From an uncultured virus (IMG/VR IMGVR_UViG_3300031539_000016) (lineage: Duplodnaviria; Heunggongvirae; Uroviricota; Caudoviricetes): a stretch of 64,000 nucleotides of DNA. Of the stretch, positions 27,712 to 59,126 are shown in pieces (the first letter of the stretch is position 1; every line of letters starts with the position of its first letter). Both the position numbers and the translations under genes were made by a program. Below the pieces are notes generated by a model. It had not been told where the DNA came from, did no database searches, and saw only the letters and a program-made list of their open reading frames with translations. Where the stretch lies: the IMG/VR virus record IMGVR_UViG_3300031539_000016. One strand, 5' to 3'.

Positions 27712-27786
27712 GCTGGGATAGTTTAGTTGGTAGAACACTAGCTTGCCAAGCTGGAAACGTGGGTTCGAGTCCCGCTCCTCGCTCCA
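27712..27786 (+). tRNA. tRNA-Gly(GCC)
   Basis: cloverleaf, anticodon loop TT-GCC-AA, GTTCGAGTC T loop, encoded CCA; one acceptor mismatch at 3:70. Confidence 0.9.
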
Positions 27787-27806
27787 TATTATAAAAGGAG
27801 TTTTAA

Positions 27807-27860
27807 ATGACATAGGTAAAACGATTAGATGGGTTGTAGATTATTAGAGGGCCTCCGTAA
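27807..27860 (+). other. amber-interrupted mini-ORF MT*VKRLDGL*IIRGPP
   Basis: AAAGGAG SD 6 nt before ATG; in-frame TAG at 27813 and 27837; ends AGA GGG CCT CCG TAA. Confidence 0.6.
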
Positions 27861-27903
27861 TTTATTTTCTTTGTAATGTTAAACATACTAAAGGAGATAA
27901 ATT

Positions 27904-28203
27904 ATGAAAACTAAAAGATTAGAACTAAAACAATGGTTAAAATATGAGAGCCTCCGAATAAAGGAAACAAGAATTAAACATAAAAATAGTCAAAGGCTGA
28001 ACAATAATAATGATTTAATGTGGCCTTTGTGTGAAATGTCCAGAGATTACAGACATCACCACATTGCTTATTCGGAACTAAGAGGCCACACAAGATCGGA
28101 AATAGAAAACCCCCGTGAAGATAATTTACCCAACGAAGATTGGATTTTATCAATAAAAAAGAAGTATTTTGATGAGCAAGAGACTTTACGTAATAGTGCG
28201 TAA
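27904..28203 (+). CDS. hypothetical protein (RHHHIAY...RG...IE motif)
   Basis: AAGGAG SD; overlaps the PTH2-like gene. Confidence 0.7.
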   Translation: MKTKRLELKQWLKYESLRIKETRIKHKNSQRLNNNNDLMWPLCEMSRDYRHHHIAYSELRGHTRSEIENPREDNLPNEDWILSIKKKYFDEQETLRNSA

Positions 28204-28462
28204 GGACTTATCAGAATCATACAGAGCTGTACAGGCTGGTCATGCGGTAGCAGAATGGCTACTACATGACCAGACCTGGAAAAATGAAACGCTAATTTAT
28301 TTAGGCGTTAGAGATGAAAAAGAACTTTCACGTTGGGCCGACAAATTAAATTTTAGAGACATTAGATGGGTTGGTTTTAAAGAACCGGATATTAATAATG
28401 AATTAACAGCTATTGCAGCTGTATGCAATGATGGAATATTTAATAAACTCAAATTATTATAA
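28172..28462 (+). CDS. peptidyl-tRNA hydrolase PTH2-like protein
   Basis: LYVIVRKDLS, AVQAGHAVAEW, F.EPD....LTAIA, C-terminal LKLL. Confidence 0.8.
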   Translation: MSKRLYVIVRKDLSESYRAVQAGHAVAEWLLHDQTWKNETLIYLGVRDEKELSRWADKLNFRDIRWVGFKEPDINNELTAIAAVCNDGIFNKLKLL

Positions 28463-28535
28463 GCGCATGTCGCCAAATGGTTTAAGGCAGCGGGCCCTAA
28501 CCCCGTAATTGGGGGTTCGAGTCCCCCCGTGCGCT
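28463..28535 (+). tRNA. atypical tRNA with CUA anticodon (putative amber suppressor)
   Basis: acceptor GCGCATG/CGTGCGC, D arm GCC..GGC, anticodon stem GCGGG/CCCGT with loop CC-CTA-AC, T arm GGGGG-TTCGAGT-CCCCC; C33 and C38 atypical, no encoded CCA. Confidence 0.75.
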
Positions 28536-28561: not shown

Positions 28562-29017
28562 ATGGACAATAGTTACAAGAGAAAAAACATTTTTTTAGGT
28601 ATGAATTGCAGTACTACTGCTAGTAAATTGAGAAAGATGTTATTATTTAAATATGTCAAACTTGCTGGCCATGATATATGTTATAGATGTGGCGAGAAAA
28701 TTGAAAGTATTGATGATTTTAGTGTAGAGCATAAAAAACCATGGTTTTATGAAGATCCAAATTTGTTTTGGGACTTGAATAATGTAGCTTTCTCTCATAT
28801 GAGGTGTAATAGGCCCCACAAACAACGTGGCGGTAATAAAGGTAGTACAGACCAAAGAAAAACTTACAAAAATAAATTGTGGTGTAATAGATGTAAAAAA
28901 TTTTTAAGTAAAAATAAATTTAGCGATAACAAATATACATGGAGTGGTAAACAAAAGTGGTGTAAAAATTGTAGAAGTATTTATTACAAAAAGAAGCCTT
29001 CACTAAAGGCTCCATAA
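28562..29017 (+). CDS. HNH endonuclease-like protein
   Basis: CYRCG, SVEHKKPW, NVAFSHMRCN, C-terminal CNRC..CKNC. Confidence 0.75.
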   Translation: MDNSYKRKNIFLGMNCSTTASKLRKMLLFKYVKLAGHDICYRCGEKIESIDDFSVEHKKPWFYEDPNLFWDLNNVAFSHMRCNRPHKQRGGNKGSTDQRKTYKNKLWCNRCKKFLSKNKFSDNKYTWSGKQKWCKNCRSIYYKKKPSLKAP

Positions 29018-29324: not shown

Positions 29325-29401
29325 GCGGGAATAGCTCAGTTGGCTAGAGCGTCAGCCTTCCAAGCTGAGGGTCGCGGGTTCGAGTCCCGTTTCCCGCTCC
29401 A
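29325..29401 (+). tRNA. tRNA-Gly(TCC)
   Basis: canonical GCGGGAATAGCTCAG...CT-TCC-AA...TTCCCGCTCCA. Confidence 0.97.
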
Positions 29402-29404
29402 TAA

Positions 29405-29479
29405 TGGGAGGTAGTTCAGTGGTAGAACGCCTGACTCTGAATCAGGAAGTCGGAGGTTCGACACCTCCTCTCCCAGCCA
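29405..29479 (+). tRNA. tRNA-Gln(CTG)
   Basis: U1-A72 acceptor, CCTGA-CT-CTG-AA-TCAGG, ends GCCA. Confidence 0.93.
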
Positions 29480-32703: not shown

Positions 32704-33699
32704 ATGAGTATTAAAGGAGTAGGATTAGATATTGGTACTAGTACTATTATAGCTGCTACTATGAATGAAGAAGGATCCCCTGTTTATAAAAAACAGAGAG
32801 ATGCTTTTTTCAAAATAACCCCTAAGTCAGAAGTTAACCGTAAAAGTATCCAGATGTCTTTAGAAGGACGTAAAGCTAATTTTATTATAGATGGTAACGA
32901 TTTTTTTGTGGTAGGGCAGGACGCGTTATATATGGCTAATGAAAGGAATGTAGAAGCCAGACGCCCTATGAGTAGAGGTGTTTTATCTCCCCGAGAAAAA
33001 TCTTCATTACCAATGCTTAAGCTTATAATTAAAAGCTTAATAGGGAAGAGTTCTGGAAGCGATAAACTTATTTTTTCTGTTCCAGCTGATCCTATAGATA
33101 TTGGGTTTGATATTTTTTACCATGAAGCTATGATCAAAACATATTTAAAAGAAATGGGGTTTAATTCAGAGTCTTTAAACGAGGGATTTGCTATTGCTTT
33201 TTCAGAGCTGTTGGATGATAACTTATCTGGAATGTGTTTATCTTTTGGCGCAGGGATGGTTAATGCAATGGTTTGTTATGAAGGCGATCCTATAGTTCAG
33301 TTCTCTCTCACCAAAGCTGGCGATTGGATAGACACTAGTGTTGGTAAAGCTTTAGATTTAAATGCCTCTATGATTCAGATTGAAAAAGAAGAATCTAAAA
33401 TGGATTTATTAAATCCAAAGGGTAAAATTCAGGAGGCACTTGTAGTTTATTATAATGTTCTTATGAATTATACTCTTGATAATATTGTTTATGAGTTAGA
33501 AAGGGCTAAGCTTCCATCTTTTAGAGAGCCGATTTCTATTGTGGTTTCAGGGGGACTAGTTTTAGCTGATAATTTTGTAGAGAAGTTTAAAGCAGAAGCA
33601 GAGACTAAGAAGTTTCCTTTTAAAATAAAAGAAATTCGTAAAGCAAAGGATCCGTTATATTGTGTAGCTCATGGATGCTTAATGGCATCTATTTTATAA
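32704..33699 (+). CDS. actin-like ATPase (MreB/FtsA/ParM superfamily)
   Basis: VGLDIGTST phosphate-1, NEG.A connect-1, SFGAGM phosphate-2, VVSGG adenosine motif, DPLY.VA.G. Confidence 0.85.
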   Translation: MSIKGVGLDIGTSTIIAATMNEEGSPVYKKQRDAFFKITPKSEVNRKSIQMSLEGRKANFIIDGNDFFVVGQDALYMANERNVEARRPMSRGVLSPREKSSLPMLKLIIKSLIGKSSGSDKLIFSVPADPIDIGFDIFYHEAMIKTYLKEMGFNSESLNEGFAIAFSELLDDNLSGMCLSFGAGMVNAMVCYEGDPIVQFSLTKAGDWIDTSVGKALDLNASMIQIEKEESKMDLLNPKGKIQEALVVYYNVLMNYTLDNIVYELERAKLPSFREPISIVVSGGLVLADNFVEKFKAEAETKKFPFKIKEIRKAKDPLYCVAHGCLMASIL

Positions 33700-57087: not shown

Positions 57088-57648
57088 GTGGGTTTCAGAG
57101 ATGGTATATTAGTAGAATTAATTAAAGAAGCGCAAGCTGAGTATATAGCTGAGATCGGTGTAGGCAAGGGAAGAACTACTAGATCAATTTTAAGATCTGA
57201 ATGTAGTGCTATAGTTAAAGAGTACTGGGCTGTGGATCCTTGGAGCACAGTGTATTCAAGAGATTTTAGGATTAGAGGTACGCAACAGGATGTTTTTGAT
57301 AAACGAGCGTGGAATGTGTATAAGTACATGTGTTTTTTTCCACAACTTAAAATAGTTAGAATGCCTTCTGTCGAGGCCGCAAAACTTTTTTTGAACTATG
57401 AAAGACATGTTGAAGGAAAGTATTTTGATATTGTTTTTATAGATGCAGAGCATGATTATGATAATGTGAAAAAAGACATATTGGCATGGCACCCTTTAAT
57501 AAAAGAAGGCGGAATTATATGCGGCCATGATTATGCTTCTAGAGAGAAAGGCGTAATAAAAGCCGTCAATGAGATATACGGTGTGGACAATATAGAAGTT
57601 ATACGCCCGGGGTCTGTTTGGGTTAAAAAGGTGGAAAACAATAGATGA
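57088..57648 (+). CDS. class I SAM methyltransferase (Methyltransf_24-like)
   Basis: AEIGV..G, WAVDPW, FDIVFIDAEH, GGIICGHDY. Confidence 0.88.
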   Translation: MGFRDGILVELIKEAQAEYIAEIGVGKGRTTRSILRSECSAIVKEYWAVDPWSTVYSRDFRIRGTQQDVFDKRAWNVYKYMCFFPQLKIVRMPSVEAAKLFLNYERHVEGKYFDIVFIDAEHDYDNVKKDILAWHPLIKEGGIICGHDYASREKGVIKAVNEIYGVDNIEVIRPGSVWVKKVENNR

Positions 57649-58562
57649 GAATACTTTTGTTAGGCCCCTCATTAATAAAAAAAAGAAATATATGCTGGGA
57701 GCTTTTTAGAAGGGATCTTGGTAGATTGCATGATGTTATATATTATGGGGACGGGTATGTTGTAGGATATGATTACACGATATCTATACCTGAAGTGCTT
57801 AATAGATACCAAACACCGGACATAATACTATTACATTTACCTTGTGGTTATAAATTTTTATCAGGGTTAGAGAATGTAAAAAACATTCCTAAAGTTTTGA
57901 TACTAGGTGATTATTTCCCAGGCTCAGAATATAAATCTGATGAATTTATGAAAAAGTATAAATTTGATATGGTGTTTGGAGATCAAGGTCAAATATGTGA
58001 TAGAGTTAGAAGTAAAAACCTTTGTGCTTCTACAGAATTTTTTCATTATAGTATTGCTATGGATTTTTTCTATGATATGGAATTTCCCAGAGAATTTGAT
58101 GTGATGGCAACTTTTGCATCTAGTGGGTATATATATCCAGTAAGGCGTGCAATACGGGAAGCTCTTTATACTGAAAACAGAATAAAATCATTTATGGGCA
58201 AAGTAATTCATAAAGACTATGTTGAGTATATTAATAGATCTAAAATGTTTATTAGTGCTAAGAGAAATGAGTCTAGCAATGTATTATGGAAATTTCAAGA
58301 AGCCATGTCATGTGGGACTATGTTACTTACTACTATGCCAGATAATTTAGATGAGTACGGGTATGAACCTGATAAACATCTAGTTGTATATGATGATGTG
58401 TCTGACATGATAGATAAAATATTGTATTATAAAGAAAATGAAGATAAACGAATTAGTATAGCGAATAATGGAATGAAATTTGTTAAGCAGAGTTATAATA
58501 ATGAAGTTGTTATTGCCAAAATTACTAAAAAGATTAGTAACTTTTTAAATATAAAGGATTAG
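57645..58562 (+). CDS. glycosyltransferase (CgeB / Glyco_trans_1_2-like)
   Basis: YINRSKM, KFQEAMSCGTMLLT, YYKENED.R..IA.NG. Confidence 0.85.
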   Translation: MRILLLGPSLIKKRNICWELFRRDLGRLHDVIYYGDGYVVGYDYTISIPEVLNRYQTPDIILLHLPCGYKFLSGLENVKNIPKVLILGDYFPGSEYKSDEFMKKYKFDMVFGDQGQICDRVRSKNLCASTEFFHYSIAMDFFYDMEFPREFDVMATFASSGYIYPVRRAIREALYTENRIKSFMGKVIHKDYVEYINRSKMFISAKRNESSNVLWKFQEAMSCGTMLLTTMPDNLDEYGYEPDKHLVVYDDVSDMIDKILYYKENEDKRISIANNGMKFVKQSYNNEVVIAKITKKISNFLNIKD

Positions 58563-58565
58563 ACT

Positions 58566-59126
58566 ATGCGTGATCATGGAAGATGGTTGAAGAAAGTAAT
58601 AGAGGATTCGAATGGATCTATAAGTAAAATAGCTGAAATAGGTGTGTTTAAAGGAGATCTTTGTAAGAGTATACTGAGAACATGCCATGATCTTATATCT
58701 GAGTATTGGGCTATAGATCATTGGGATCATATAGAAGATGGGCATAGGCATATGATGGGCGGAAAATGGGTAGAGACAGATTGGGATAGGACGTATATGT
58801 ATGTTTGTAGATTGATGAGGTTTTTTCCAAAATTACACGTTGTTCGTGCTACATCAATAGAAGGATCTAAAGTATTTCCAGATGGGTATTTTGATCTGGT
58901 TTTTATAGATGCTGATCATTGGTATTATAATGCTATAGCTGACATCAAAGCCTGGTATCCATTAGTAAGATCTGGTGGTATAATGAGCGGACATGACTAT
59001 TTAGATGATGAACCTAGAGGATATGGGGTACAAACAGCTGTTAATGAATTTTTTGCAGGAAAAGAGGTAGAAATAGTAGGCGGCGAATCTAAAGTTGAAG
59101 CTGTGTGGGCACATAATAAAAAATAA
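58566..59126 (+). CDS. class I SAM methyltransferase (Methyltransf_24-like)
   Basis: AEIGVFKG, YWAIDHW, FDLVFIDADH, GGIMSGHDY. Confidence 0.88.
   Translation: MRDHGRWLKKVIEDSNGSISKIAEIGVFKGDLCKSILRTCHDLISEYWAIDHWDHIEDGHRHMMGGKWVETDWDRTYMYVCRLMRFFPKLHVVRATSIEGSKVFPDGYFDLVFIDADHWYYNAIADIKAWYPLVRSGGIMSGHDYLDDEPRGYGVQTAVNEFFAGKEVEIVGGESKVEAVWAHNKK

What the first reader, a model, noticed from the sequence alone, without database searches (positions are those of the whole stretch)
28463..28535. Atypical amber tRNA: Gly-type acceptor, Gln/Cys-like D arm, C33 and C38
Seen: anticodon loop CC-CUA-AC, with C at the near-invariant U33 position. The acceptor has G1-C72, C2-G71, G3-C70 and discriminator U73, and CAA follows instead of CCA. 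Established: those acceptor elements are tRNA-Gly identity determinants, whereas suppressors in TAG-recoded phages usually insert Gln. Two tRNA-Gly genes lie on either side. Inference: a weak or context-specific suppressor, possibly charged with Gly or needing the adjacent unknown protein or C-to-U editing.
Basis: partly seen in the sequence, partly recalled or inferred. Interest (0 to 1): 0.7.

Follow-up and report, generated by a model that had tools for sequence, protein, structure and literature searches.

The report
Phage stop-codon switch with own tRNA
This bacterial virus carries a tRNA that reads the UAG stop codon, apparently not to change its genetic code but to switch on one small neighbouring operon, a design that recurs in many large phages and may explain why such tRNAs exist.

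Summary
The tRNA is real and described correctly, but C33 and the Gly-type acceptor are strain-level details (8 and 9 of 173 related suppressor tRNAs). The conserved feature is the context. The tRNA follows a two-gene operon (helical protein A, Pth2-fold protein B) led by a 17-codon leader: Met-Thr-amber...amber-Ile-Ile-Arg-Gly-Pro-Pro-stop. A hairpin hides A's ribosome site unless a ribosome reads through both ambers to the Pro-Pro. Of 205 B-protein clusters, 164 have a stop-anticodon tRNA in the locus and 168 a stop-codon gate in a leader, in B or in an HD-like partner. Opal and ochre versions switch gate and anticodon together. The genomes otherwise use TAG as a stop, and no other gated gene was found. 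Best reading: a read-through sensor, tRNA against release factor, that turns on a Pth2-like protein. Its purpose is inferred; nothing was measured. B lacks Pth2's catalytic Lys. It gives cultured phages such as XacN1 the suppressor target their authors could not find. Not found in print (10 searches). The scan noted the leader form before on other DNA (e1-5680253).

The parts
27795..27800 (+). Shine-Dalgarno site of the leader
   Evidence: sequence; like sites before the leaders of 15 close relatives printed
27807..27860 (+). Amber-gated leader ORF, 17 codons: ambers at codon 3 (27813-27815) and codon 11 (27837-27839), ends Arg-Gly-Pro-Pro-TAA
   Evidence: motif amber-(1-8 aa)-PP in 88 of 96 A-type clusters against 22 of 1255 control starts; both ambers kept and length changes in whole codons in 15 of 15 leaders printed
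27846..27857 (+). RGPP, a ribosome-arrest-type motif
   Evidence: RGPP 35, RDPP 9, RSPP 8, RAPP 3 of 88, with varied Pro codons; RGPP arrest described in PMC12992588
27856..27906 (+). Hairpin that pairs over the SD (27891-27896) and ATG of gene A
   Evidence: fold z -2.95; opening cost 17.0 kcal/mol with a ribosome at the last amber, 0.5 with it at Pro-Pro; 5 of 6 consensus pairs show two-sided changes in 13 close sequences
27904..28203 (+). Gene A, 99 aa, basic helical hairpin, no family found
   Evidence: adjacent to B in 102 of 205 clusters; model pLDDT 92; no clear fold match; no Pfam family shared by the 75 members
28172..28462 (+). Gene B, 96 aa, Pth2-fold protein; overlaps A by 32 nt; its TAA abuts the tRNA
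   Evidence: Foldseek E 4.1e-6, TM 0.78 to 2ZV3; VIA Z 13.6, rmsd 1.9 over 96 residues to 1WN2; profile E 1.1e-6
28463..28535 (+). Amber suppressor tRNA (CUA), C33 variant, CCA not encoded
28562..29017 (+). HNH endonuclease gene, probably a mobile insertion and not part of the module
   Evidence: Pfam HNH E 2e-4, phrog_23251 E 9e-17; a tRNA-Thr stands here in L012
27712..27786 (+). tRNA-Gly(GCC), context only
29325..29479 (+). tRNA-Gly(UCC) and tRNA-Gln(CUG), context only

Best explanation
The tRNA is the input of a read-through-gated switch. Without suppression the ribosome stops at leader codon 3 or 11, the hairpin keeps gene A's start closed, and neither A nor the overlapping B is made. When charged tRNA(CUA) outcompetes release factor 1 at both ambers, the ribosome reaches RGPP, pauses on the hairpin's 5' arm, frees the SD, and A and then B are translated. 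Other phages reach the same logic with a stop at codon 3-5 of B, in a surface loop of B, or in an HD-like partner. Shown by sequence comparison: linkage, gates, gate-anticodon match, hairpin. Inferred: charging, stalling, coupling of B to A. I put the switch at about 0.8. The purpose I think most likely (about 0.4) is a termination-stress sensor: a deliberately weak suppressor wins only when release-factor activity falls during infection, and B then frees or handles tRNA left carrying a peptide. This copy's C33 would raise the threshold.
For: Stop-anticodon tRNA in 164 of 205 B clusters, 100 of 118 with at least 3 kb on both sides, 91 of those within 3 kb; 0 of 11 loci picked by another gene of this phage group; in three long records 3 of 44 20-kb pieces hold one, each the piece with B. 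Gate in 168 of 205 by a fixed rule; gate and nearest tRNA agree in 142 of 142 (137 TAG/CUA, 4 TGA/UCA, 1 TAA/UUA); L243 has an ochre leader and a UUA tRNA. Opal rows sit beside amber rows in separate parts of the tree (L171 with L187, support 96; L167 with L117 and L121, 93). Leader motif 88 of 96 against 22 of 1255. Median opening cost of A's start 10.1 falling to 2.5 kcal/mol; a drop of 2 or more in 77 of 88 against 13 of 100 controls. Gates are followed by a purine in 211 of 225 cases against 139 of 269 terminal TAGs and preceded by Thr, Pro or Gly in 134 of 225; +4U lowers read-through (PMC5289835, abstract). For a weak tRNA: G-C or C-G at 31:39 in 14 of 173 suppressors against 446 of 861 other tRNAs. 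Against strong global suppression: no back-up stops after TAG-ended genes (median 15 codons against 12).
Against: No expression, charging or read-through data. 37 of 205 clusters had no gate by the rule; some are visible by eye or, but none was found for L022, L026, L029, L064, L071, L072, L096, L130, L216. 41 of 205 have no suppressor in the stretch held; the whole-record search confirmed a distant one by ARAGORN in 6 of 26 records. The leader rule looked for TAG only, so A-type agreement is partly built in; the non-amber cases number about seven. In the plain MFE folds the Pro codons themselves pair with A's SD zone in only 48 of 88, and not in the window. 36 of 88 leaders stop right after the motif, so plain passage or termination could open the hairpin without arrest. 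B lacks the catalytic Lys of Pth2 (Gln 80, Tyr 26 of 117), so hydrolase activity is uncertain. XacN1's gated gene has a second ATG five codons after the amber. The loci were collected with B-derived patterns and capped at 80 per scan.
Confidence: 0.75

Rival explanations
1. Negative-feedback governor: the tRNA is the effector (low read-through that rescues stalled ribosomes or disturbs host genes ending in TAG), and B, with A, deacylates or binds it so that read-through stays capped.
For: B is made in proportion to read-through, and the tRNA starts within 20 nt of B's stop in 53 of 159 clusters of the three main classes that have one. The Pth2 fold acts on tRNA 3' ends (recalled).
Against: The tRNA bodies share almost nothing but the anticodon, and a 96-residue domain at the acceptor end could hardly read it (inference). 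About half of the clusters lack A.
Confidence: 0.2
2. tRNA-damage sensor: the identity-poor tRNA is charged only when host nucleases or phage take-over remove competing tRNAs; B and the HD-like partner then recycle or repair tRNA.
For: No conserved identity set. HD-like partner in 19 of 103 non-A clusters, itself often gated. PMC7824862 places phage PTH2 among tRNA-repair functions (passage).
Against: The HD assignment is weak (Pfam HD E 0.05 in 1 of 3; poly(A) polymerase E 0.9). No repair gene is a regular neighbour: a nucleotidyltransferase in 4 loci.
Confidence: 0.2
3. Timer or self-reinforcing switch: the gate delays A and B until the phage tRNA has matured, or answers to tRNA from a co-infecting relative; B has a non-hydrolytic role such as binding tRNA or a release factor.
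For: Two ambers in 49 of 88 leaders give a steep response. The catalytic Lys is lost while R10, D12, Q21, H24, E71-P72-D73 and T79 are kept. Sensing of co-infection by suppressor tRNA was proposed for recoded phages (10.1101/2021.08.26.457843, passage).
Against: No downstream target was found, so the switch would have no output beyond A, B and HD.
Confidence: 0.2
4. This copy is decaying: C33 has inactivated the tRNA and the operon is silent.
For: U33 is near-invariant in elongator tRNAs (PMC5041475, passage); close relatives have U33.
Against: All stems pair; leader, hairpin, A and B are intact; C33 recurs in 8 of 173 suppressors, one of them in the cultured phage ME3 with a gated B.
Confidence: 0.12
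5. One reading: a Gly-inserting suppressor that recodes TAG in phage genes and needs C-to-U editing.
For: Gly-type acceptor in this copy and five others of its clade.
Against: TAG is a terminator here; no interrupted gene in the window; the acceptor is not conserved; U33 is DNA-encoded in relatives.
Confidence: 0.05

Closest known systems
Leader-peptide translational attenuation (ermC, cat, secM-secA; recalled) and RAPP/RGPP arrest peptides (PMC12992588)
   Same: Short upstream ORF ending in RGPP-like residues; a hairpin hides the next gene's SD; ribosome position opens it.
   Different: The input is read-through of stop codons by a dedicated tRNA, not a drug, metabolite or pulling force; about half of the loci use no leader and gate the gene directly. 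The word 'phage' does not occur in PMC12992588's main text.
prfB (RF2) autoregulation by an early in-frame stop (PMC12421855 listing; PMC5289835 opening)
   Same: An early stop makes expression depend on competition with a release factor.
   Different: Read-through by a tRNA, not a +1 frameshift; any of the three stops; the product is a Pth2-fold protein, not a release factor.
Stop-recoded phages with suppressor tRNAs (code 15 or 4; 10.1101/2021.08.26.457843)
   Same: A phage suppressor tRNA controls expression of genes with in-frame stops.
   Different: These genomes keep TAG as a terminator; only B, its leader or its partner is gated; no late-gene recoding.
Pth2 peptidyl-tRNA hydrolases, noted in jumbo phages (PMC7824862)
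   Same: Fold, R-x-D-L and Q-x-x-H motifs, acidic residue at the catalytic Asp position.
   Different: Catalytic Lys and Thr columns are not kept; shorter; expression gated. The review has no occurrence of 'suppressor'.
tRNA-Pyl
   Same: CUA anticodon; ARAGORN's label.
   Different: Ordinary cloverleaf: two bases between acceptor and D stems, G18G19, UUC in the T loop, 5-bp anticodon stem.

Membership tests
tRNA-Pyl | 6-bp anticodon stem, one base at 8-9, no G18G19, no T-psi-C, 3-nt variable loop (features recalled) | tested here: not met
   5-bp stem, U8 C9, GG in the D loop, UUCGAGU T loop, 4-nt variable loop
tRNA-Pyl | PylRS in the phage or host | not tested
   host unknown; no genome held
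tRNA-Gly identity | G1-C72, C2-G71, G3-C70, U73 (recalled) | tested here: met
   9 of 173 in the family
tRNA-Gly identity | C35 and C36 (recalled) | tested here: not met
   anticodon CUA
tRNA-Gly identity | Charged by GlyRS | not testable with these tools
   needs aminoacylation
TAG-recoded phage (code 15) | TAG avoided as terminator and frequent inside genes | tested here: not met
   TAG ends 12 of 51 long ORFs, among them ClpP; no interrupted gene found
Pth2 (PF01981) | Pth2 fold | tested here: met
Pth2 (PF01981) | Pfam gathering score 23 | tested here: not met
   15.7 bits for the window protein; XacN1's fusion reaches 25.3
Pth2 (PF01981) | Catalytic Lys, Asp, Thr (positions recalled) | tested here: not met
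   by the alignment to 2ZV3 the Lys column is Gln 80, Tyr 26 of 117; Asp is Glu in 117 of 117; the Thr column is Gly, Asn or Asp; the alignment has gaps near both sites
Pth2 (PF01981) | Hydrolyses peptidyl-tRNA | not testable with these tools
   needs an assay
Leader-peptide translational attenuator | Short SD-led ORF upstream of the target | tested here: met
   73 of 88 motif-bearing leaders have an SD-led start
Leader-peptide translational attenuator | Hairpin over the target's SD that a ribosome at the leader end would open | tested here: met
   computed only:
Leader-peptide translational attenuator | Ribosome stalls at the motif | not testable with these tools
   motif match only

The most novel reading that the evidence does not exclude
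Large phages carry a portable translation-surveillance module: a deliberately weak nonsense-suppressor tRNA measures release-factor activity in the infected cell and, through any of three independently built stop-codon gates, induces a Pth2-fold protein with a new active site that stands in for failed peptide release. It would point to an unknown host defence or phage strategy that disables release factors, and would be the standing stock from which whole-genome stop recoding in phages arises.
Probability: 0.35. Interest if true: 0.92.

Novelty: new variant of a known kind. Interest (0 to 1): 0.8.

Why it matters
Amber tRNAs in standard-code phages are a published puzzle: the XacN1 authors tested 18 terminal ambers and found no target (PMC5852040, passage). 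Here XacN1's ORF364 has SD-Met-Lys-amber 21 nt before its annotated start, and Serratia phage BF (gene unannotated), Acinetobacter phage ME3 and Tenacibaculum phage pT24 have a gated B. This names the target, corrects annotation and makes the question testable with simple reporters. It also offers a reason why phages acquire suppressor tRNAs before recoding, a step that 10.1101/2021.08.26.457843 proposes (passages), and supplies 173 natural suppressor tRNAs and a new set of arrest-type leaders.

Tried and rejected
An exact DNA pattern from the tRNA's 5' half found nothing in viral contigs; blastn to phage records gave two weak tRNA-Lys hits. Another anticodon register (CCU, CCC) does not fit the stem. 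Met-Trp-TAG before the large terminase (39904) is a shadow of the upstream gene: the homologue in L005 starts right after it. A -1 frameshift from A to B (A-AAA-AAG near 28155) was dropped, because nearly all B genes keep their own start. Genome-wide scans found no further gated gene; they missed B's internal TAG in G004 and cannot see short leaders, so sensitivity is limited. Complex prediction of A with B: no answer, score 0.02. A: no Atlas hit, no fold above common helical matches, no likeness to B or to two other neighbour families. No RNA holder listed. The nearest held virus record G001 does not cover the region. The 'fused' class was mixed (12 of 19 were A-overlaps), and 'fusions are ungated' (my note) was overturned. 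No promoter could be assigned: 12 sites against 8.3 expected. Literature searches showed no paper on the module; subscription journals are mostly not covered.

Full report
Observation. C33 lies at 28496. Contigs of two runs keep it and a contig of a close strain has T. The window is a large phage-like contig in the standard code: TAG ends 12 of 51 long ORFs. No genome is held for it; DNA runs that hold it are soil and sediment metagenomes.

The tRNA's oddities are not conserved. With relatives of the upstream gene B as bait I collected 264 loci (plus the window; each profile scan kept at most 80 of 139, 140 and 314 confirmed hits; the prokaryote genome scan gave 3). They collapse to 205 clusters at 90% identity. 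These hold 173 distinct stop-anticodon tRNAs: U33 in 165, C33 in 8; base 73 is A 81, U 48, G 35, C 9; CCA is encoded in 85. The window's acceptor set occurs 9 times, and there are 58 combinations of bases 1-3 and 73. The window groups with L192 and L194 (support 96), both U33. What the suppressors share is A37, mostly A38, G51-C63 in 130 of 173, and a weak or mismatched 31:39 pair (G-C or C-G in 14 of 173 against 446 of 861 other tRNAs). The window's copy has G31-C39 but C33. My parse is a script on ARAGORN output, and a few rows are misparsed by a base.

The linkage is conserved. A stop-anticodon tRNA lies in 164 of 205 clusters, and in 100 of the 118 with 3 kb on both sides. Eleven loci chosen by another gene of this phage group have none. 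In three long records only the piece with B holds one (3 of 44 pieces). For 26 records without one near B, a pattern search and ARAGORN confirmed a distant amber tRNA in 6, among them XacN1, Xoo-sp13 and pT24 (not every match was returned as a locus, and many records are fragments).

B is gated by the codon the tRNA reads. In unrelated phages B begins Met-x-stop and goes on in frame, mostly with the stop at codon 3 (39), 4 (12) or 5 (7). 31 internal stops were listed, 26 of them at domain positions 26-34, just after the first helix. An HD-like partner occurs in 19 clusters, never with gene A, and all five HD-B fusions start Met-x(1-6)-amber. Opal gates go with UCA tRNAs (L120, L131, L167, L171) and an ochre gate with a UUA tRNA (L237). 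On a quick tree of 204 rows (one short row left out, 98 of 201 branches open) opal rows are sisters to amber rows in separate places.

The window's gate is a leader. B and A have no TAG here, but 27807-27860 reads Met-Thr-amber-7 codons-amber-Ile-Ile-Arg-Gly-Pro-Pro-stop. Among the 96 A-type clusters with 200 nt upstream (6 more were too short), 88 have amber-(1-8 residues)-Pro-Pro or Ser-Pro-stop 43-130 nt before A; other starts in the same loci give 22 of 1255. Pro codons vary, length changes come in whole codons, and both ambers are kept in the 15 close leaders printed. L243, with a UUA tRNA, has TAA in its leader. Like leaders, three of them opal, precede other genes in ten loci without A. 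RGPP and RAPP give robust, EF-P-resistant arrest, and RDPP and RSPP are partly permissive (PMC12992588: abstract, outline and two passages). A hairpin at 27856-27906 covers A's SD and ATG and covaries. The computed cost of opening A's start falls from a median 10.1 to 2.5 kcal/mol when the ribosome moves from the last amber to Pro-Pro; in the window from 17.0 to 0.5 (I assumed a 13-nt footprint). By one fixed rule 168 of 205 clusters are gated, and gate and tRNA agree in 142 of 142 where both are seen (the leader part of the rule looked for TAG only).

It is not recoding. In G002 and G003, B was the only convincing gene with an early amber, plus the HD-like gene behind B in G003. A homology test over 3.8 Mb gave 51 early and 28 internal ambers in B and a few in HD; the other hits were mostly antisense or wrong-frame matches, judged by eye. 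TAG-ended genes have no back-up stops. Gates sit in weak-termination context: purine at +4 in 211 of 225, and Thr, Pro or Gly before the stop in 134 of 225. The +4 effect is from PMC5289835 (abstract and opening); the effect of the preceding residue is recalled.

What B and A are. B's model (pLDDT 95.5) matches Pth2 structures. It keeps Q21, H24 and E71 in 117 of 117 sequences, but the catalytic Lys column is mostly Gln or Tyr (the catalytic positions are recalled, and my searches did not return a source that I read for them). It may be a hydrolase with an altered site or a tRNA-binding protein like human PTRHD1 (recalled). A is a basic helical hairpin with no family. A and B are joined in frame through an amber in L245 and L222.

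Mechanism. Shown: linkage, gates, codon match, hairpin, standard code. Inferred: charging by some host synthetase, stalling, coupling of B to A through the 32-nt overlap, and the direction (more read-through, more B), which follows from all three designs. For purpose I favour a sensor of failing termination (0.4), since any stop codon serves, the tRNA looks weak and identity-free, two ambers give a threshold, and the output has the fold of a peptide-releasing enzyme, in the manner of prfB. Negative feedback, tRNA-damage sensing and a timer take about 0.2 each.

Known context. PMC5852040 (two passages) reports amber tRNAs in XacN1 without targets; its ORF364 has SD-Met-Lys-amber upstream of the annotated start. 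PMC6102473 (two passages) lists an opal suppressor and putative peptidyl-tRNA hydrolases in Atu_ph07 without linking them; I did not check that genome. PMC7824862 (three passages) notes PTH2 in jumbo phages. 10.1101/2021.08.26.457843 (12 passages) covers recoded phages. PMC5041475 and PMC11122139 (passages) state that U33 is near-invariant. PMC12421855 was seen as a listing only. I read no supplements; XacN1's Table S3 and the closed bioRxiv supplements may bear on suppressor counts. Ten searches showed no description of the module. It is an unchecked AI note and not independent support. Two other look-ups gave nothing relevant.

Verdict. The tRNA marks a widespread, apparently undescribed read-through-gated module. 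Interest 0.8; new variant of regulatory recoding; function untested.

Noticed in passing
L025:1940-1961 (AP018399.1, before ORF364): SD-Met-Lys-amber in frame with the annotated HD-like/Pth2-like fusion: a candidate target for XacN1's amber tRNAs.
   Followed up: yes
L023:2486-2812 (Serratia phage BF): B gene with an amber at codon 4 carries no annotated feature.
   Followed up: yes
L029:1847-1919: An ochre (UUA) tRNA 588 nt upstream of B in a Lak phage; no gate found.
   Followed up: partly
window 28562-29017: HNH endonuclease right behind the amber tRNA; L012 has a tRNA-Thr there.
   Followed up: partly
window 27712-27786: tRNA-Gly(GCC) has a U3-C70 mismatch in the acceptor stem.
   Followed up: no
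window 32704-33699: Actin-like Volactin gene (Pfam E 4e-63) in a phage, near ClpP; 11 viral relatives.
   Followed up: no
window 57645-59126: Two ORFs in frame, separated by TAG and one codon, in a run of probable modification-enzyme genes; read-through would fuse them. Not listed by the homology scan.
   Followed up: partly
window 39904: Met-Trp-TAG in frame before the large terminase; a shadow of the upstream gene.
   Followed up: yes
L014:5459-5530: tRNA with an even-sized anticodon loop that ARAGORN could not assign (Gly or Trp).
   Followed up: no
tRNAs across L033-L274: 13 phage tRNA-Ile(GAU) parsed with C33, the largest group among 50 non-suppressor C33 cases; parse not checked.
   Followed up: no
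L095, upstream of 5776: An A-like stretch appears fused in frame to B, with an amber leader upstream; seen by eye.
   Followed up: partly
L127:9711-10136: A 142-aa family of unknown function lies near B in 11 clusters without A; no PHROG match.
   Followed up: partly
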